This document shows positions 9,529-29,944 of a DNA stretch of 64,000 nt, piece after piece. Below the pieces are notes generated by a model that did no database searches, was not told where the DNA came from, and saw only the letters and a list, made by a program, of their open reading frames with translations. The stretch is taken from the sequence record NC_054930.1; one strand, written 5' to 3'. Numbering within the stretch: the stretch's first letter is position 1; every line of letters begins with the position of its first letter. Source of the stretch: Escherichia phage PP01. Made by a program: the position numbers and the translations under genes.

Positions 9529-9999
9529 TTAATCATGTTTCCACACCCCATCGGTATTTGACCAAAGTCGCTGATTATCTGATCCTCGCCACAGCTTTTT
9601 GGTCGGAAGATTTTTCTCATACTTCCCATCAATAATAACATCAACATATTTAAGCATTTCTAGTTGTTTAATATCTTCAAACTTATATCCTGTCCACAAC
9701 CAAATGCTTTTATTTGGATAAAGATTTTTTACTGTTTGAACAATGCAATGAACAACATCTCGGTTATCAGGATAGAGAGGGTCTCCTCCAGTTATAGTTA
9801 ATCCTTCTATATAATCATTATTCAAACATTCAATTAATTGTTCCAGCGTTTCACCAGTGAATGGAATGCCATTTCTAGCATTCCATGTTGATTTATTATA
9901 ACACCCTTCACATTTATGCAAACAACCTGTAACGAAAAGAACGACCCTGCAACCAGGGCCATTCACAAAGCAGCACGGGTATATTCTGTCATAATTCAT
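9529..9999 (-). CDS. nrdG: Anaerobic ribonucleotide reductase activating protein (radical SAM)
   Basis: ORF track 9529..10020; Cys cluster CCFVNGPGCRVVLFVTGCLHKCEGCYN; start at MNYDRIYP gives 156 aa as in T4. Confidence 0.85.
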   Translation of the reverse strand: MNYDRIYPCCFVNGPGCRVVLFVTGCLHKCEGCYNKSTWNARNGIPFTGETLEQLIECLNNDYIEGLTITGGDPLYPDNRDVVHCIVQTVKNLYPNKSIWLWTGYKFEDIKQLEMLKYVDVIIDGKYEKNLPTKKLWRGSDNQRLWSNTDGVWKHD

Positions 10000-10826
10000 A
10001 ATAATATCCAATTTTTCCAAGCTTCATCAGTAGAATTACAGCGTTTTAGTATAAGATGTCTAGAAACTTTTATGGCATTTGAGCACTTTTTAATTGAATC
10101 ATATTTAATACCGTCAACTGAAACGGTTTTGCTAGTTGGAGAAATTTTTCCATACATTGGATTTTTTGAACCAACTTGAAGTCCTTTTAAAGCTTTTGAA
10201 AGCTTTTGTCTAGATTCCAATGACATGGGAGAATTCTTTTTACCTTCAATAATTCGCTTGCGATGAAGTTCGCGTTCTTCTTCACTCAAAGAATTGTAAT
10301 ATTTTTTAACACCGTTTGATATAGATAATTTATCTTTCTCAGACCGCTCTCCAGCTAATTTACTTCTAACATCTTTTCGCTTCATAGCTATGCTTACGGC
10401 TTTATTTAAATTTGCTTGATGCTCTGGCGTACGTTTATATTTCTTTAAAGCACGTGAAATAGCTATTTTAGTTTCTTCTGTTCTCTTTTTACCTTTATTT
10501 GCTAAACTATTTTTGCGGCGATGTTCAAGTGTCTGTTCATAGGCAGTTCCACCTTTTCCACCAGGTTTAATATTATATGTATTTTCTTTTAGACAATACT
10601 CTTCGGTTACAAGTTCAGCTTCTTTATCATACATTTGTTTTTCATTATCAAAAACATGTAAAATTTCTTTATTAAAATTTTTTCTACCATATTTTAATAA
10701 AGCGGCACGAATCAATGTTCCTGACCCCATATAACCGTCATTTATGTTATCGGTGCTATGCGCACCGATATATTCCTTTGAATTAATTATATTTGTTATT
10801 TTATAAATTATATAATACCTATGCAT
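9996..10826 (-). CDS. GIY-YIG homing endonuclease (Seg-like), 276 aa, free-standing between nrdG and nrdD
   Basis: N-terminal GIY-YIG module YIIYKITNIINSKEYIGAHST...YMGSG; N-terminal ~70 aa closely parallel segB in this window; basic C-terminal DNA-binding half. Confidence 0.8.
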   Translation of the reverse strand: MHRYYIIYKITNIINSKEYIGAHSTDNINDGYMGSGTLIRAALLKYGRKNFNKEILHVFDNEKQMYDKEAELVTEEYCLKENTYNIKPGGKGGTAYEQTLEHRRKNSLANKGKKRTEETKIAISRALKKYKRTPEHQANLNKAVSIAMKRKDVRSKLAGERSEKDKLSISNGVKKYYNSLSEEERELHRKRIIEGKKNSPMSLESRQKLSKALKGLQVGSKNPMYGKISPTSKTVSVDGIKYDSIKKCSNAIKVSRHLILKRCNSTDEAWKNWILL

Positions 10827-26154: not shown

Positions 26155-26367
26155 TCATTTTTGTCCTGTATTTACTTTATGCCGATGCACGGCCTTAACT
26201 TTATCAAGGTATTTTTCAAAATTTCGCAATCTAGTATAGTCTGCCGGAGATTGGTTGAGTGATACTTCTCGACGCAAAGCTGAAATGATATTTCCAACTT
26301 CCCTACGAATTTCATCTAATTGAAGCACAGTAAGATTGCGAAGTTGCTTTTCAGTTAATTGTAGCAT
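26155..26367 (-). CDS. Hypothetical protein, 70 aa
   Basis: ORF track. Confidence 0.5.
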
Positions 26368-26409
26368 ATATACCCCTTTAGTTAGATAAACCTATTTATA
26401 ACTTTTGCA

Positions 26410-26991
26410 CTAACCGAGCTTTTTAGTTAATTCATTCCAATGTTTTCTACACAAAGAAACATAAATTTCATCACCTATACAGATTTGATTACCTTCTTTA
26501 ACTGGTGTTCCATCTTCCATTAATCGAGCTGTCATGATCGCTTTTTTGCCGCAATGACAAACTGCCTTTAGTTCAATAAGTTTATCTGCAATCGCTAAAA
26601 GTTCTTTAGAACCTTCAAATAATTTTCCAGCGAAATCAGTCCTTAATCCATAAGCCATAACAGGAACATTATATGTATCAACAATTCGGCTCAATTGATG
26701 TACTTGTTCAGTTTTTAAAAACTGAGCTTCATCTACAAATACGCAATGAATATCTTTTTGTGCTTCAGCCCATTTATAGAATTCGAAAATGTCCATATCA
26801 TCTGTAATAATATTCGCTTCCTGCTTAATTCCAATGCGAGAAACGACTTCACAGACAGAATCGCGAGTATCAATAGCAGGCTTAAGAACTAATACACTCA
26901 TTCCACGTTCTTTATAATTATGTGCAGCAGTCAAAAGAGAAGCAGATTTTCCAGCATTCATTGCTGCATAAGTAAAAATTAAACTCGCCAT
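26410..26991 (-). CDS. tk: Thymidine kinase
   Basis: 193 aa; P-loop MNAGKS; Zn-binding CHCGKKA...C..C motifs. Confidence 0.93.
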   Translation of the reverse strand: MASLIFTYAAMNAGKSASLLTAAHNYKERGMSVLVLKPAIDTRDSVCEVVSRIGIKQEANIITDDMDIFEFYKWAEAQKDIHCVFVDEAQFLKTEQVHQLSRIVDTYNVPVMAYGLRTDFAGKLFEGSKELLAIADKLIELKAVCHCGKKAIMTARLMEDGTPVKEGNQICIGDEIYVSLCRKHWNELTKKLG

Positions 26992-27000
26992 ATCACCTTC

Positions 27001-27186
27001 TTAAAGCGTATTCACATAAGCTATTAATTCGTTTTCTTTCTTATCAAACCGGTCAGCAAATTCTTCTTGTTGTTCGGGAGATAGCGGGCCGTATTCATCA
27101 TAAAAGGTGTTTGCTTCTGCATGCTCATCTAGAAGTTCATGGATAAGCTCAAACAATTTATCTTTTTGTTCTTTACTCAGACTCAT
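27001..27186 (-). CDS. Hypothetical acidic protein, 61 aa
   Basis: ORF track. Confidence 0.5.
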   Translation of the reverse strand: MSLSKEQKDKLFELIHELLDEHAEANTFYDEYGPLSPEQQEEFADRFDKKENELIAYVNTL

Positions 27187-27355
27187 ATATTAATTTCCAG
27201 GAGTTTTAAAATAATTCGCTTTTGCTTAAATATTTCCGTAGTTAAATGGTCAGTATCTTTTTGACCGATTCCAATGGCAAAACCTTTATTAACAGCGAGT
27301 TCAATTAAATTATCAAGCTCACGTAACACTTCATATTGTAACTCAAAATTATTCA
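27183..27355 (-). CDS. Small hypothetical ORF (~57 aa), below ORF-track cutoff
   Basis: Hand translation beginning MNNFELQYEVLRELDNLIELAVNKGFAIGIGQKD...; coordinates approximate (my hand count around here disagreed with the ORF track by 1 nt). Confidence 0.3.
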
Positions 27356-27580
27356 TTTTGGTTTACCTTCTTTAACGAAATCAGGATAAGGATAAAATCC
27401 TGAATAAAATCCTTCACCTTTATGATTGATGCATCCTTTATTAGAACAATAGCACCAATAATCGAAATCACAAGCCATTTCATCATTACATAAAGCAAAA
27501 ACAACTGGCCATTCACACTTTTCGCAGTGGGCATTTTTAAGAATACTAGTTTGGCTCATAACCATGTAACCTTTAAACAA
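27353..27580 (-). CDS. Cys-rich small protein, 75 aa
   Basis: ORF track; multiple CxxC pairs (CEKCEW, CNDEMAC, CYCSNKGC). Confidence 0.5.
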   Translation of the reverse strand: MFKGYMVMSQTSILKNAHCEKCEWPVVFALCNDEMACDFDYWCYCSNKGCINHKGEGFYSGFYPYPDFVKEGKPK

Positions 27581-27768
27581 TATTCTTCTACGTGCTGTTT
27601 ACGACCTTTCTTATCAATAAAGGTATATTCAACGAATGTTCCAATATAGTCTTTATCTACATCATGAGGACTATTAATTGGGCATTTAGTACGGCAAATG
27701 CGTTCCCATTGACGAATAATTTCCACTTTGTTTTTAGGATCAAACGGATGCGGGTAATGTACTTTCAT
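27556..27768 (-). CDS. Hypothetical protein, 70 aa
   Basis: ORF track. Confidence 0.5.
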   Translation of the reverse strand: MKVHYPHPFDPKNKVEIIRQWERICRTKCPINSPHDVDKDYIGTFVEYTFIDKKGRKQHVEEYCLKVTWL

Positions 27769-28219
27769 AATCCACCACTATTAAATCAATATCAGGAGTA
27801 AACATGTCGATTAATTTAGAAACCTTATCCCAATCACCGCCAGCAATACCACAACCTATGCGTGGAATGTAAATTACTGGTTTAAACAAAAGGGTCTCTG
27901 CCTGTAGATTTAATTCTATCATGCAGTTTACTAAAGCACCATAATCAAGATTAGGACCCGGTTCGTATTGCGTATACAGGTTATAGCACATACTAAATCC
28001 TGTAGGATTATGTTTAAAAACAATAGACATATCGCCTAATTTATCACGAGAACCGTACTCGGTAGTAGTTTTATCTATTTCTAAAATTTTGGGATAGGCT
28101 CTTGCTAATTGACCCGCTACACCAGAGCCCATTGTGTGGAAGCAGTTGCATCCGTGCGCAATAATATTACCTTGAAGAAATAGGGCGACAATATCGCCCT
28201 TGATATATTTTACAATCAT
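27740..28219 (-). CDS. Macrodomain-like protein (ADP-ribose binding/processing fold), 159 aa
   Basis: Macrodomain signature pattern GDIVALFLQGNIIAHGCNCFHTMGSGVAGQLARAYP ... PRIGCGIAGGDW. Confidence 0.6.
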   Translation of the reverse strand: MIVKYIKGDIVALFLQGNIIAHGCNCFHTMGSGVAGQLARAYPKILEIDKTTTEYGSRDKLGDMSIVFKHNPTGFSMCYNLYTQYEPGPNLDYGALVNCMIELNLQAETLLFKPVIYIPRIGCGIAGGDWDKVSKLIDMFTPDIDLIVVDYESTLPASV

Positions 28220-28557
28220 CTAGTACTCAATCCTCGATTATAAGAATCTACCAAACGGTCAACCATTGAATGACAAGCGGCTTTATCTTTCTCCTCCGCA
28301 ACTGAACATTCTAAGGTATTCCACTTTTTAGCATATCGTTTTAACAATGTATCATTTTTATATCTGCTTGATTTATCTCTTTCTCCGTCTTTATATGCAT
28401 ATATTAATTTCTGCGCAAATTCAGCTTGGCATGCTTTATTTTTCCCACAATAATCCGCGGCAGTACGGTTTACATACTCTCTAATTTCAGTATATGATGT
28501 ATCTGCTAACGCAGAAAATGAAATTAATCCTATACATAAAACCAAAATTTTAGTCAT
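28216..28557 (-). CDS. Secreted small protein with signal peptide, 113 aa
   Basis: N-terminal signal peptide MTKILVLCIGLISFSALA; four Cys. Confidence 0.55.
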   Translation of the reverse strand: MTKILVLCIGLISFSALADTSYTEIREYVNRTAADYCGKNKACQAEFAQKLIYAYKDGERDKSSRYKNDTLLKRYAKKWNTLECSVAEEKDKAACHSMVDRLVDSYNRGLSTR

Positions 28558-29095
28558 TTACTATTTCCAAAAGTTTATTATTTTTAAGGTAATTAGCCTT
28601 TTCTAGGACTTCAGAAGCATATTTAGAACCTGCTTTAACATTCCATCCCGAATTATAAGAGGATATCGCCTTTCTTATATCGCCCTTATGTATATTTAAC
28701 CAATAAGAAAGTTCAATGTACGCCCAGGAAGCTGAATTGGACCGTTTATTCAACATTCTTTTTATTTCAGCATCGGTCATATTATAACCAAGTTCCTTAA
28801 CTCTTGCTCGCATAGTCGGCAAATAATTTTGGAACATTCCATAGGCATGATGCTTTGGTTTAGATTTTAAATTAACTCCGGCAGAGCTTTCTTGCCATAA
28901 AATAGCAGCCATTATATGACCTAATCCGCTCTTATGGATATTTTTGTGTGTTTTATATTTTCCATCCTTAGAAAATTGTTCCCCGAATTGATACGCGTAA
29001 CGCATGTTATCGAGTTGGACATTACTGAAAGTATGCTCGGAGCTATGTGCCATCATAGAAATGGCCAATAGACCAGCGAGTAGTGCTTTTCTCAT
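28550..29095 (-). CDS. Secreted lytic-transglycosylase-like (SLT-domain) protein, 181 aa
   Basis: Signal peptide MRKALLAGLLAISMMAHS; SLT-like catalytic region LWQESSAG ... SYNSGWN. Confidence 0.55.
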   Translation of the reverse strand: MRKALLAGLLAISMMAHSSEHTFSNVQLDNMRYAYQFGEQFSKDGKYKTHKNIHKSGLGHIMAAILWQESSAGVNLKSKPKHHAYGMFQNYLPTMRARVKELGYNMTDAEIKRMLNKRSNSASWAYIELSYWLNIHKGDIRKAISSYNSGWNVKAGSKYASEVLEKANYLKNNKLLEIVND

Positions 29096-29102
29096 GCTTA
29101 CC

Positions 29103-29564
29103 TCATTGAGTTTTAATTACTGCTTTAGAAGCCTTTCCTGGTAAACGACGACTGTTAATAATTGCCATCCTGCATTGAAGCGACGGGTCTTTGAACTTCG
29201 CATTAGGTTTACAAACTGTAAATCCAAGCCAAAGATTTCCATCTGTGATTTCTAAACGCCCAGGACGATATTCAACCCCATCAATAAAATCCTCGTCAAT
29301 GTCAGGACGCGGAGGCATACTCAGGAATTCATTAACTTCTAAAACATGGTCTTTTATTTTATGGAATAATTCAAAAACATATGTCTCATCAATCTCCCGT
29401 TGAATTGCACGATCAAGAAGATGTTGAGAATATTTTAGATGAAACGATGAGACCCCTGCTGCTTTTGATGCCTCACGAATCTCATTGTTAATTTGACGAA
29501 ACTCCGACTCAAAGTGACGACGGAGCTTATTTCGACGGATAAAAACTTCTATGTTGATAGTCAT
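29103..29564 (-). CDS. regB: Sequence-specific endoribonuclease RegB
   Basis: 153 aa; sequence (MTINIEVFIRRNKLRRHFESEFRQ...) matches my recollection of T4 RegB; early promoter just upstream. Confidence 0.8.
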   Translation of the reverse strand: MTINIEVFIRRNKLRRHFESEFRQINNEIREASKAAGVSSFHLKYSQHLLDRAIQREIDETYVFELFHKIKDHVLEVNEFLSMPPRPDIDEDFIDGVEYRPGRLEITDGNLWLGFTVCKPNAKFKDPSLQCRMAIINSRRLPGKASKAVIKTQ

Positions 29565-29589
29565 GTTATTCTCCTCTTAACTGATAGAA

Positions 29590-29640
29590 AAATTATACCA
29601 CAGTCAAGAGGAAAAGTAAACAGTTATTCTTTAAATCTAA
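29590..29640 (-). promoter_or_regulatory. T4-type early promoter
   Basis: Plus strand aattataccacagtcaagaggaaaagtaaacagtt. Confidence 0.55.
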
Positions 29641-29944
29641 TCAATTTATTCATAGACTTTGAAACTTCTGCACGAACCTCATGTAGGTTTTTAAGCTGTT
29701 CAAGACGCTGCTCATAGTAAGCAATTTCATCTTCTTCGAGACAGTCCTGCGAATCTTCTTTAAGATAACGTGCATAGTCCTGGAAAGCTTTACGGACTAC
29801 TTCCTGGAAGTCATCAAGACTTTGAATTTTCTTAGGAGCAACAGATACACGACGAGGGGCAGTATAATATTCATAACCAAACCCTGCGCTTAATTGAGCC
29901 ATTAATATTTTTCCTCTGGTTGGAACACAGCACGACAAGCCCAC
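29624..29944 (-). CDS. Hypothetical protein, 106 aa
   Basis: ORF track. Confidence 0.5.

What the first reader, a model, noticed from the sequence alone, without database searches (positions are those of the whole stretch)
27353..29095. Macrodomain protein beside two signal-peptide proteins and small Cys-rich proteins
The 159-aa ORF carries macrodomain hallmarks (GDI..., HGCNC..., GSGVAGQL, PRIGCGIAGG), implying ADP-ribose or O-acetyl-ADP-ribose binding or hydrolysis. Immediately downstream are a 113-aa secreted Cys-containing protein and a 181-aa secreted SLT-like lytic transglycosylase (QESS...SYNSGWN); upstream are Cys-rich mini-proteins. T4-like phages encode ADP-ribosyltransferases, and hosts use ADP-ribosylation-based defences, so a phage macrodomain could regulate or reverse such marks. 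An early-expressed periplasmic transglycosylase is also unexpected and could act in superinfection or cell-wall remodelling.
Basis: partly seen in the sequence, partly recalled or inferred. Interest (0 to 1): 0.7.

Follow-up and report, generated by a model that had tools for sequence, protein, structure and literature searches.

The report
T4-type phage macrodomain (Tk.4/AdfM) gene block
This is the well-known tk.3–tk.4–vs–vs.1 early gene block of a T4-like phage; its macrodomain gene is a common but untested allele of T4 Tk.4/AdfM, which was recently shown to protect T4 from the bacterial DarTG2 DNA-ADP-ribosylating defence, so the finding is real but largely already explained.

Summary
The window is a Tequatrovirus (about 98% nt identity to many T4-like phages), and the genes are T4's tk.3, tk.4, vs and vs.1. 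The 113-aa "secreted Cys protein" is Vs, the "valyl-tRNA synthetase modifier" (97% to T4). The 181-aa SLT protein is Vs.1 (99% to T4).

The 159-aa protein has a confident macro fold (pLDDT 94.8). Its nearest structures are TARG1, Poa1p, BT1257 and DarG, not MacroD/YmdB/Af1521.

Three things go beyond the textbook reading:
- The window carries a different allele: 58% aa identity and saturated dS, against flanks with dS of about 0.1. It is found in 311 phage records, and T2, T4 and T6 all carry the other allele.
- The whole Tk.4 family has an invariant Gln where DarG and TARG1 have their catalytic Lys. It is closer to the validated phage ADPR-1''-phosphate phosphatase Adpp (39%) than to DarG (25%).
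- Vs has a conserved Sec signal peptide, although its reported target is cytoplasmic.

Verdict: already known, modest interest.

The parts
29592..29620 (-). Sigma-70-like early promoter upstream of regB (TTTACT-17-TATAAT with an extended TG). It is the likely start of the regB-vs.1-vs-tk.4-tk.3 transcript.
   Evidence: Best promoter match in the region, 10 of 12. It is only a consensus match: the total number of sites in the region was not above the shuffled expectation. The sequence is identical in T4.
29103..29564 (-). regB, site-specific endoribonuclease (context gene, first gene of the block)
   Evidence: Pfam REGB_T4 E 2.8e-68. 97.4% nt identity to T4 regB.
28550..29095 (-). vs.1: 181-aa predicted periplasmic SLT-family lytic transglycosylase. 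Signal peptide about residues 1-18; catalytic Glu69 in WQES; G86-M-F88-Q89; Y147-N148-S-G150.
   Evidence: 99% aa identity to T4 Vs.1. Pfam SLT above the gathering cutoff. 30 of 34 family members hit SLT, best E 1.3e-7. E69, G86/F88/Q89 and Y147/N148/G150 are invariant in 34 homologues. Signal-peptide heuristics.
28216..28557 (-). vs: 113-aa 'valyl-tRNA synthetase modifier', with a Sec-type signal peptide (cleavage predicted after SALA18) and 4 conserved Cys in the mature 11-kDa part. Its start overlaps the vs.1 stop by 8 nt.
   Evidence: 97% aa identity to T4 Vs. PHROG 1256 E 5e-40. Signal features and Cys positions are conserved in the homologues. The AF2 model is low confidence (pLDDT 61, four helices).
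27740..28219 (-). tk.4/adfM-family macrodomain, 159 aa, window-type allele. Key residues are H22, N25, G31-x-G33, Q84 and the loop P119-RIGCGIAGGDW130. Its start overlaps the vs stop (ATGA), and its 3' end overlaps tk.3 by 29 nt.
   Evidence: Pfam Macro E 3.7e-8. AF2 pLDDT 94.8, pTM 0.89. Foldseek top hits are TARG1, Poa1p, BT1257 and DarG, at E 5e-10 to 3e-8. 58% aa identity to T4 Tk.4. Active-site mapping.
28182..28200 (-). Perfectly conserved GC-rich hairpin (AGGGCGATATTGTCGCCCT) inside codons 7-13 of the macrodomain gene. It coincides with the 5' breakpoint of the allele replacement.
   Evidence: Terminator-like scan. Identity to T4 drops from 100% to 78% or less at about 28190. Whether the hairpin has a function is unknown.
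27556..27768 (-). tk.3: 70-aa protein with 3 Cys, function unknown (DUF7202)
   Evidence: Pfam DUF7202 E 1.2e-37. PHROG 2008. 89% nt identity to T4 tk.3, with a divergent 5' end.
27353..27559 (-). 68-aa Cys-rich protein (7 Cys), predicted phage zinc-binding domain. Absent from T4 at this position, present in T2 and T6.
   Evidence: Pfam Phage_zn_bind PF23895 E 4.2e-29. PHROG 2306. T4 comparison. T2 and T6 have ORFs of the same size at this position.
27001..27356 (-). Two small ORFs (57 aa at 27183-27356; 61 aa DUF7438 at 27001-27186) that take the place of T4 tk.1/tk.2 between tk and the zinc-binding ORF
   Evidence: PHROG 3452 and PHROG 653. Pfam DUF7438 E 3e-19. The alignment to T4 shows replacement.
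26410..26991 (-). tk, thymidine kinase (context gene marking the downstream end of the variable block)
   Evidence: Pfam TK E 6e-61. About 99% nt identity to T4 in the aligned part.

Best explanation
The 159-aa gene is the tk.4/adfM orthologue of a T4-like phage. It is a small single-domain macrodomain enzyme, made early from the regB promoter as part of a translationally coupled operon. It most likely binds ADP-ribose adducts and hydrolyses them to defeat a host NAD+-based defence. The most probable substrate is the ADP-ribosyl-thymidine that DarT2 places on single-stranded phage DNA, as inferred for T4 AdfM. If it does this, it uses Lys-independent chemistry (His22/Asn25/Gln84) that differs from DarG and TARG1.

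Shown here: the fold, the family placement, the orthologous position, active-site conservation, the allele replacement and purifying selection.

Shown by others, for the T4 allele only: the gene is required for DarTG2 resistance.

Inferred: enzymatic removal of ADP-ribose from DNA, which has not been shown biochemically even for T4 Tk.4, and transfer of that role to this allele.

The two neighbours are Vs and Vs.1. Both are predicted to be exported to the periplasm, and nothing links them functionally to the macrodomain beyond co-transcription.
For: - Identity and synteny: the gene order regB, vs.1, vs, macro, tk.3 ... tk is the same as in T4. Vs is 97% and Vs.1 99% identical to T4. The macro protein is 58% identical to T4 Tk.4 over its full length, E 8e-71.
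- Fold: pLDDT 94.8. TARG1, Poa1p, BT1257 and DarG are the top PDB hits.
- Function of the orthologue: tk.4 was the single significant hit in a T4 transposon screen on a DarTG2 host, and a clean knockout was sensitised (bioRxiv 10.1101/2025.11.20.689424). T4 lacking adfA and adfN stays DarTG2-resistant, which had predicted a further factor (PMC11825919).
- Active site: Asn25 aligns with DarG N22, one of the two DarG catalytic residues named in PMC13309987. H22, N25, Q84 and the G-x-G loops are present in 120 of 120 full-length homologues.
- Selection: dN/dS is 0.17 against T4 with dS about 2.2, so both alleles are maintained as functional genes.
- Expression: an early sigma-70-like promoter lies upstream of regB, and start/stop codons overlap throughout the block.
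Against: - The Lys shared by the two enzymes known to reverse thymidine-ADPr (DarG K80, TARG1 K84; PMC8883491; PMC13309987) is absent. The aligned residue is an invariant Gln, and there is no Lys anywhere in residues 78-112.
- The only Tk.4 allele tested, shared by T4, T2 and T6, has a rare diphosphate loop, GAGIGKGNW. The window has the family-majority GCGIAGGDW, which is nearly identical to the loop of the ADPR-1''P phosphatase Adpp.
- The protein is closer to Adpp (39% identity, E 1e-26) than to DarG (25%, E 2e-10).
- It falls far below the NCBIfam DarG equivalog cutoff, 28.9 bits against 250.
- No biochemistry exists for any Tk.4-family protein.
Confidence: 0.55

Rival explanations
1. It is an ADP-ribose-1''-phosphate phosphatase of the Poa1p/Adpp type. 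It would act on a small soluble ADP-ribose derivative rather than on DNA, for example the ADPR-1''P that RES-domain NAD+ phosphorylases (aRES) produce. The DarTG2 phenotype may then be a speciality of the derived T4-type allele. The two activities need not be mutually exclusive.
For: - It is 39% identical (E 1e-26) to Vibrio phage Gary Adpp, which was purified and shown to convert ADPR-1P to ADPR (bioRxiv 10.64898/2026.01.28.702374).
- It shares His22 with Poa1p H23, Gln84 with Adpp, and a diphosphate loop GCGIAGGDWD against Adpp's GCGLAGGDWD.
- T4 annotation has called Tk.4 an 'A1pp phosphatase' since the early 2000s. PHROG 335 is named 'phosphatase'.
Against: - Adpp works inside a NARP1 operon (Adps-Adpp-Namat). 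The window has no Adps or Namat homologue: tblastn gave nothing better than E 0.5. Only 64 kb of the genome could be examined.
- Without NARP1, dephosphorylating ADPR-1P would not rebuild NAD+.
- The only in vivo phenotype known for a Tk.4 orthologue is DarTG2 sensitivity.
Confidence: 0.22
2. It erases or tunes the phage's own protein ADP-ribosylation (Alt, ModA, ModB), or removes O-acetyl-ADP-ribose.
For: From general knowledge, T4-like phages encode three ADP-ribosyltransferases. TARG1-clade macrodomains can deacetylate OAADPr and cleave Glu-linked ADPr (PMC8883491).
Against: - Alt/Mod marks are Arg-linked (general knowledge; PMC3102197 was listed but not read), and no macrodomain class is known to hydrolyse that linkage.
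- There is no genetic linkage to alt or mod.
- The tk.4 knockout has no reported phenotype on a defence-free host.
Confidence: 0.06
3. It is a non-catalytic ADP-ribose binder or a stoichiometric inhibitor, for example sequestering DarT2 or a nucleotide signal, rather than a hydrolase.
For: The catalytic Lys is missing. Other anti-DarT factors act by binding: AdfB does so by direct interaction (PMC11481870).
Against: Polar active-site residues H22, N25 and Q84 are invariant across homologues down to 40% identity, which is typical of an enzyme. A close homologue, Adpp, is catalytically active. The protein is a single 159-aa domain with no extra interaction domain.
Confidence: 0.07

Closest known systems
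T4 Tk.4 = AdfM (anti-DarT factor Macrodomain; bioRxiv 10.1101/2025.11.20.689424)
   Same: It occupies the same genomic slot between vs and tk.3, in the same early operon. It has the same length class and the same H22/N25/Q84 residues, and is 58% identical over its full length.
   Different: It is a different allele. dS is saturated while the flanks are 97-98% identical. The diphosphate loop is GCGIAGGDW, against T4's rare GAGIGKGNW. The C-terminus is 4 aa longer and overlaps tk.3. It has never been tested against DarTG2, since T2, T4 and T6 all carry the T4 type.
Adpp, the NARP1-associated ADPR-1''-phosphate phosphatase of Vibrio phage Gary (bioRxiv 10.64898/2026.01.28.702374), and yeast Poa1p
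   Same: It belongs to the same Poa1p-like macrodomain subtype: His in the H-x-C-N-C motif, Gln at the DarG-Lys position (Adpp), and a near-identical GCG(I/L)AGGDWD loop. Identity is 39%, E 1e-26.
   Different: It is not in an Adps-Adpp-Namat operon, and no NARP1 genes were detected in the window. Phosphatase activity has not been tested. Poa1p itself has Ser, not Gln, at the aligned position and a long insert.
DarG antitoxin macrodomain, PhiKZ gp104 'AdfM' (PMC13309987) and human TARG1
   Same: It has the same macrodomain clade and fold (Foldseek E 1e-8 to 5e-10, TM about 0.72-0.82). The Asn equivalent to DarG N22 is conserved. The proposed biological role is the same, reversal of DarT2 thymidine ADP-ribosylation.
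   Different: It lacks the catalytic Lys (DarG K80, PhiKZ K78, TARG1 K84), which is an invariant Gln84 here, and it lacks TARG1 D125. It has no C-terminal DarT-binding domain. It is only 25% identical to DarG and scores 28.9 bits against the 250-bit cutoff of the DarG equivalog model.
BT1257 (PDB 2AFC/2FG1), Bacteroides thetaiotaomicron structural-genomics protein
   Same: It is the closest solved structure by sequence (E about 1e-10). It has His, Gln and the IGCGLAGGKW loop at the same positions.
   Different: It is a bacterial protein of unknown function, so it says nothing about the substrate.
T4 Vs.1 and family-1 lytic transglycosylases (Slt70/MltE type, Pfam SLT)
   Same: The 181-aa protein is 99% identical to T4 Vs.1. 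It has the E-S, G-x-F/M-Q and Y-N-x-G motifs, which are invariant across the family.
   Different: It is much smaller than the cellular Slt proteins. It shows no significant sequence match to any solved structure; the best is g-type lysozyme at E 0.46. Neither activity nor biological role has been demonstrated.

Membership tests
Macro domain superfamily (Pfam PF01661) | Sequence match above the curated threshold | tested here: met
   33.8 bits against a cutoff of 22, E 3.7e-8, covering profile positions 2-117 of 118.
Macro domain superfamily (Pfam PF01661) | Three-layer alpha/beta/alpha macro fold with a Gly-rich ADP-ribose-binding cleft | tested here: met
   AF2 pLDDT 94.8, pTM 0.89. 172 PDB matches at E<=0.001, and all the top ones are macrodomains. 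G31-x-G33 and G122-x-G124 are conserved.
Macro domain superfamily (Pfam PF01661) | Binds ADP-ribose or a derivative | not testable with these tools
   Needs ITC, a thermal shift assay or a co-crystal.
T4 Tk.4 / AdfM (anti-DarTG2 factor) | Orthologous position between vs and tk.3 in the regB-tk early block | tested here: met
   Same gene order as T4 NC_000866, with flanks 97-99% identical.
T4 Tk.4 / AdfM (anti-DarTG2 factor) | Full-length homology to T4 Tk.4 | tested here: met
   58% identity over 155 aa with no gaps, E 8e-71.
T4 Tk.4 / AdfM (anti-DarTG2 factor) | Same substrate-loop sequence as the experimentally tested allele | tested here: not met
   The window has PRIGCGIAGGDW. T4, T2 and T6 have PRIGAGIGKGNW, which occurs only in the small T4-type cluster.
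T4 Tk.4 / AdfM (anti-DarTG2 factor) | Required for plating on DarTG2 hosts | not testable with these tools
   Shown only for T4. It needs allele-swap plaque assays.
DarG / TARG1-type ADP-ribosyl glycohydrolases | Catalytic lysine (DarG K80, TARG1 K84, PhiKZ AdfM K78) | tested here: not met
   The aligned residue is Gln84, invariant in 120 of 120 homologues. There is no Lys in residues 78-112. The role of the Lys comes from PMC8883491 and PMC13309987.
DarG / TARG1-type ADP-ribosyl glycohydrolases | Catalytic-site asparagine (DarG N22, PhiKZ N23) | tested here: met
   Asn25 aligns with it and is invariant.
DarG / TARG1-type ADP-ribosyl glycohydrolases | NCBIfam antitoxin_DarG equivalog score, and the two-domain architecture with a DarT-binding C-terminal domain | tested here: not met
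   28.9 bits against a cutoff of 250. The match covers only the macro part, positions 2-142 of a 338-position model. The protein is a single 159-aa domain.
Poa1p / Adpp ADPR-1''-phosphate phosphatases | Conserved His of the H-x-C-N-C motif (Poa1p H23) | tested here: met
   His22 aligns with Poa1p H23 and Adpp-type H24. DarG has Asn there. That H23, S30 and F152 were the residues probed in Poa1p is known only from the PDB entry titles. The effects of those mutations were not read.
Poa1p / Adpp ADPR-1''-phosphate phosphatases | Significant homology to the biochemically validated Adpp (Vibrio phage Gary KNV71_gp137) | tested here: met
   39% identity, E 1e-26.
Poa1p / Adpp ADPR-1''-phosphate phosphatases | Embedded in a NARP1 operon (Adps-Adpp-Namat) | tested here: not met
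   The neighbours are vs and tk.3. No Adps or Namat homologue was found in the 64-kb window, best E 0.55. Compare Quinn and Gary.
Poa1p / Adpp ADPR-1''-phosphate phosphatases | ADPR-1''P phosphatase activity | not testable with these tools
   Needs an LC-MS assay on ADPR-1''P.
   NCBIfam NF001661 scores 16.5 bits against a cutoff of 291. The top 25 Foldseek hits are TARG1, Poa1p, BT1257, DarG and TTHA0132-derived designs, with viral Mac1 domains only after that.
SLT lytic transglycosylase (Pfam PF01464), for Vs.1 | Sequence match above the curated threshold, reproducible across the family | tested here: met
   23.4 bits against a cutoff of 21.3 for the window protein. 30 of 34 homologues match at E<=0.01, best 1.3e-7.
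SLT lytic transglycosylase (Pfam PF01464), for Vs.1 | Catalytic Glu-Ser, G-L/M-M/F-Q and A/S-Y-N-x-G motifs | tested here: met
   E69 is invariant and S70 nearly invariant (90% or more). G86, F88, Q89, Y147, N148 and G150 are invariant in the 34-sequence alignment. The motif definitions come from general knowledge of family-1 LTs.
SLT lytic transglycosylase (Pfam PF01464), for Vs.1 | Lysozyme-like fold, confirmed against solved structures | tested here: inconclusive
   phmmer and a 34-sequence profile against PDB sequences gave only a marginal g-type lysozyme hit, E 0.46.
Sec (SPase I) signal peptides, for Vs and Vs.1 | Positive n-region, 10-15-residue hydrophobic h-region, and small residues at -3 and -1 | tested here: met
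   Vs: MTK / ILVLCIGLISF / S-A-L-A|D. Vs.1: MRK / ALLAGLLAISMMA / A-H-S|S. Maximum 10-aa hydropathy is 3.0 and 2.4. The feature is conserved in the homologues despite sequence drift. This is a heuristic only, with no SignalP.
T4 Vs (valyl-tRNA synthetase modifier) | Sequence identity to T4 Vs | tested here: met
   112 of 115 residues identical, with a 2-aa deletion in the signal peptide. PHROG 1256.
T4 Vs (valyl-tRNA synthetase modifier) | Binds or modifies host ValRS | not testable with these tools
   This is the historical assignment. The HIDEN-SEQ preprint states that the biological role is not known.

The most novel reading that the evidence does not exclude
The tk.4 locus is a two-allele (or multi-allele) counter-defence cassette that T4-like phages exchange by recombination. 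The alleles would differ in substrate. The family-typical window allele, with an Adpp-like GCGIAGGDW loop, would be an ADPR-1''P or other ADPr-derivative hydrolase, or would counter a different DarT/ART variant. The derived T4/T2/T6 allele (GIGKGNW loop) would be specialised for DarT2 thymidine-ADPr. A corollary is that Tk.4-type macrodomains which do reverse DNA ADP-ribosylation use a Lys-independent mechanism (His22/Asn25/Gln84) not seen in DarG, TARG1 or PhiKZ AdfM.
Probability: 0.25. Interest if true: 0.55.

Novelty: already known. Interest (0 to 1): 0.3.

Why it matters
DarTG and other NAD+-consuming defences are widespread, and T4-like phages are leading candidates for phage therapy. Which anti-defence allele a phage carries could help decide its host range. 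This analysis shows that about half of sequenced Tequatrovirus-like genomes carry a tk.4 allele different from the one tested in T4. It also shows that the family lacks the catalytic lysine on which the accepted DarG/TARG1 mechanism depends. The published inference that AdfM removes ADP-ribose from DNA like DarG therefore deserves a direct biochemical test. It should not be copied onto every 'macro domain protein' annotation. Otherwise the locus is ordinary, conserved T4 biology.

Tried and rejected
- MacroD/YmdB/Af1521 membership: rejected.
- DarG membership: rejected, because the Lys is absent, the protein has a single domain, and it falls far below the equivalog cutoff.
- NARP1 association: no Adps or Namat in the window.
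- Rapid in-situ evolution or pseudogenisation as the cause of the 58% identity: rejected, because dS is saturated, dN/dS is 0.17 and the ORF is intact.
- Vs.1 against solved structures: neither the single sequence nor the 34-sequence profile gave a significant hit. The SLT call rests on Pfam, family-wide hits and invariant motifs.
- Vs structure prediction: only 6 homologues were available, so the model is low confidence (pLDDT 61). I did not run a fold search on it because the matches would be meaningless. Vs also has no hit in my Pfam copy or in NCBIfam.
- Literature: the Miller et al. 2003 T4 genome review (PMC150520) is not held. Searches for Vs localisation found nothing. The 'AdfM' search was mostly noise from DOI strings. 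The CmdTAC paper does not discuss phage macrodomains. AdfB turned out to be a binder, not a macrodomain.
- Sandbox: two scripts failed because locus L002 was not exported. I used the comparison tools instead.


Full report
**What is there.** The region 26.4-29.6 kb of the window is a run of minus-strand genes with overlapping start and stop codons. In transcription order they are:
- regB (29103-29564)
- a 181-aa ORF (28550-29095)
- a 113-aa ORF (28216-28557)
- a 159-aa ORF (27740-28219)
- a 70-aa ORF (27556-27768)
- a 68-aa ORF (27353-27559)
- two further small ORFs
- thymidine kinase (26410-26991)

Megablast of 26300-29700 finds 747 phage records. Of these, 472 cover at least 80% of the query, and the best are about 98% identical; they are Tequatrovirus genomes such as CrRp10, PE37 and teqskov. 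Against the T4 reference annotation the genes are regB, vs.1, vs, tk.4, tk.3 and tk. So the finding describes the classical T4 tk-vs-regB early block.

**The two signal-peptide proteins.** The 113-aa protein is Vs, the "valyl-tRNA synthetase modifier". It matches T4 Vs at 112 of 115 residues and hits PHROG 1256. The 181-aa protein is Vs.1, identical to T4 at 180 of 181 residues.

Vs.1's SLT assignment is marginal for the single sequence (Pfam 23.4 bits, cutoff 21.3). It is solid at family level:
- 30 of 34 homologues, down to 42% identity, hit SLT, with a best E of 1.3e-7.
- Glu69, G86/F88/Q89 and Y147/N148/G150 are invariant and S70 is nearly so. Together these make up the three signature motifs of family-1 lytic transglycosylases.
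- Searches against PDB sequences were not informative.

The SLT similarity of vs.1 and the "A1pp phosphatase" (macro) similarity of tk.4 were both reported for T4-like genomes by 2006 (PMC1524935). Neither is a new observation.

Both proteins have textbook Sec-type N-termini. The feature is conserved in the homologues although the sequence drifts.

**The macrodomain.**
- Pfam Macro scores E 3.7e-8.
- An AlphaFold2 model built on a 60-sequence alignment is very confident (pLDDT 94.8, pTM 0.89).
- Foldseek against the PDB returns TARG1, Poa1p, BT1257 and DarG as the best matches (E 5e-10 to 3e-8, TM 0.7-0.8).
- Sequence search gives the same set: BT1257 at 1e-10, Poa1p at 2e-9, SCO6735, DarG and TARG1.

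The YmdB-type NCBIfam model scores 16.5 bits against a cutoff of 291.

**What is known about the orthologue.** A November 2025 preprint screened a T4 transposon library on a DarTG2-expressing host (bioRxiv 10.1101/2025.11.20.689424). tk.4 was the single significant hit, and a clean knockout was sensitised. The authors renamed the gene adfM and proposed, without biochemistry, that it removes ADP-ribose from DNA as DarG does. This fits an earlier result that T4 and T2 lacking AdfA and AdfN remain DarTG2-resistant (PMC11825919). The same preprint reports that a vs knockout plates poorly on minimal medium.

**What differs in this window.**

*1. The allele.* The flanking genes are 97-98% identical to T4 at the nucleotide level, but tk.4 is only 65% (58% aa). 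The breakpoints are sharp, at about 28190 and about 27770. Nei-Gojobori estimates give dS of about 2.2 and dN/dS of 0.17 for tk.4, against dS of 0.09-0.12 for regB, vs.1 and vs. This is an old, functional allele brought in by recombination, not a decaying or rapidly evolving copy.

Both alleles are common. The window type (at least 90% identity) occurs in 311 phage records. The T4 type occurs in 224, with a further 159 at 80-90%. T2, T4 and T6 all carry the T4 type, so I found no DarTG2 test of a phage carrying the window-type allele.

*2. The active site.* DarG's catalytic residues are N22 and K80 (PMC13309987). TARG1 shares the lysine, and these are the enzymes known to reverse thymidine-linked ADP-ribosylation (PMC8883491). 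I confirmed my recalled DarG, TARG1 and Poa1p sequences against the PDB. Profile and MAFFT alignments then show:
- Asn25 aligns with DarG N22.
- DarG K80 aligns with Gln84. One BLAST alignment places a gap there instead. Either way, residues 78-112 contain no Lys.
- His22 aligns with Poa1p H23 and TARG1 H32, where DarG has Asn.
- His22 and Gln84 are present in all 120 full-length homologues retrieved.

*3. The diphosphate loop.* The window has the family-majority sequence PRIGCGIAGGDW. The tested T4 allele has the rare PRIGAGIGKGNW, which is confined to its own small cluster.

**A second characterised relative.** A January 2026 preprint shows that Poa1p-like macrodomains inside phage NARP1 operons (Adpp) are ADPR-1''-phosphate phosphatases (bioRxiv 10.64898/2026.01.28.702374). 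They let NARP1 rebuild NAD+ after attack by the RES-domain defence aRES. The Vibrio phage Gary protein was purified and shown to be active.

I located that gene, KNV71_gp137, between Adps and Namat (the same layout occurs in phage Quinn). The window protein is 39% identical to it (E 1e-26). It shares the His, the Gln and an almost identical loop (GCGLAGGDWD). By contrast it is only 25% identical to DarG (E 2e-10). The window contains no Adps or Namat, so it is not a NARP1-AP system.

Separately, the chimallivirus protein also named AdfM (PhiKZ gp104) is a true DarG2-like N23/K78 enzyme with demonstrated DNA de-ADP-ribosylation (PMC13309987). Two different macrodomain subtypes now carry the same name.

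**Most likely mechanism.** The gene is transcribed early from the sigma-70-like promoter upstream of regB (29620-29592). It is translationally coupled to its neighbours. I think the most probable role, at about 0.55, is the one shown genetically for its T4 orthologue. That role is neutralising DarT2 by hydrolysing ADP-ribosyl-thymidine on phage ssDNA, using His/Asn/Gln chemistry rather than a lysine.

The main rival, at about 0.22 and not mutually exclusive, is hydrolysis of a soluble derivative such as ADPR-1''P. Reversing the phage's own Arg-linked Alt/Mod marks, or acting as a non-catalytic binder, is unlikely.

I found nothing that functionally connects the macrodomain to Vs, Vs.1 or the Cys-rich mini-proteins (Tk.3/DUF7202, and a Phage_zn_bind protein that T4 lacks here but T2 and T6 have). 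The only link is co-transcription in a hyperplastic early region.

**Assessment.** Novelty: already known; the exact protein is present in GenBank phages (100% identical in Shigella phage Sfk20) and is often annotated "macro domain protein" or "phosphatase".

Residual interest (0.3) comes from three points: the untested, widespread second allele, the missing catalytic lysine, and the odd signal peptide on Vs.

Noticed in passing
window 28216-28557 (-), Vs: The protein annotated everywhere as 'valyl-tRNA synthetase modifier', which implies a cytoplasmic target, has a canonical Sec signal peptide (MTKILVLCIGLISFSALA|DTSY). Four Cys in the mature part (C37, C43, C84, C95) are conserved in all full-length homologues. 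In the low-confidence four-helix model they lie beside the two hairpin loops. The mature protein is 11.0 kDa. The gene's start overlaps the stop of the periplasmic SLT gene vs.1 by 8 nt. Export seems hard to reconcile with the textbook function. The HIDEN-SEQ preprint says the biological role of the modification is unknown and reports a minimal-medium plating defect for the vs knockout.
   Followed up: partly
window 28182-28200: A GC-rich hairpin (AGGGCGATATTGTCGCCCT, 8 pairs) lies inside codons 7-13 of the macrodomain gene. It is 100% conserved with T4 and sits exactly where identity to T4 collapses, at the 5' breakpoint of the allele swap. It could be a recombination boundary, an RNA element or a coincidence.
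   Followed up: no
window 27001-27559 compared with T4 (L002 3347-3717), T2 (L004 7475-8218) and T6 (L005 8183-8926): The tk.1/tk.2 slot is mosaic. T4 has tk.1 and tk.2. The window has a DUF7438 ORF, a 57-aa ORF and a 68-aa zinc-binding ORF. T2 and T6 have tk.1, a shortened tk.2, and ORFs the same size as the 57-aa and 68-aa ones. This is a second replacement next to the tk.4 allele swap.
   Followed up: partly
Literature: PMC13309987 and bioRxiv 10.1101/2025.11.20.689424: Two non-orthologous phage macrodomains were independently named AdfM. PhiKZ gp104 is DarG2-like (N23/K78) and has been validated biochemically. T4 Tk.4 is Poa1p-like (H22/N25/Q84) and has only genetic support. The Cell Reports paper states that no macrodomain Adf had been reported. 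This is a nomenclature collision and could lead to annotation errors.
   Followed up: yes
L001 (phage teqskov) 2751-3296, and other records listed: Annotation errors are being propagated in GenBank. Vs.1 is labelled 'endoribonuclease RegB domain-containing protein' in teqskov, and the same label appears among the features under the match in HY01 and PEC04. Vs is labelled 'valyl-tRNA synthetase' in many records. The T2 and T6 records (AP018813, AP018814) carry clearly wrong names across this region, such as 'tail sheath monomer' and 'terminase small subunit' on small early ORFs.
   Followed up: no
L005 (phage T6, AP018814) 9936-10166: At the vs.1 position T6 has only a 231-bp annotated ORF, followed by a gap before regB. 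This suggests vs.1 is disrupted or mis-called in T6. If it is really disrupted, vs.1 is dispensable for a classical T-even phage.
   Followed up: no
window 27740-27768: The window-type macrodomain gene extends 4 codons further than the T4 allele (…ESTLPASV against …EPLL). It therefore overlaps the start of tk.3 by 29 nt, where T4 has a 4-nt ATGA overlap. The 5' end of tk.3 is also divergent (tk.3 dS 0.71 against about 0.1 for the other flanking genes), so the recombination tract reaches into tk.3.
   Followed up: partly
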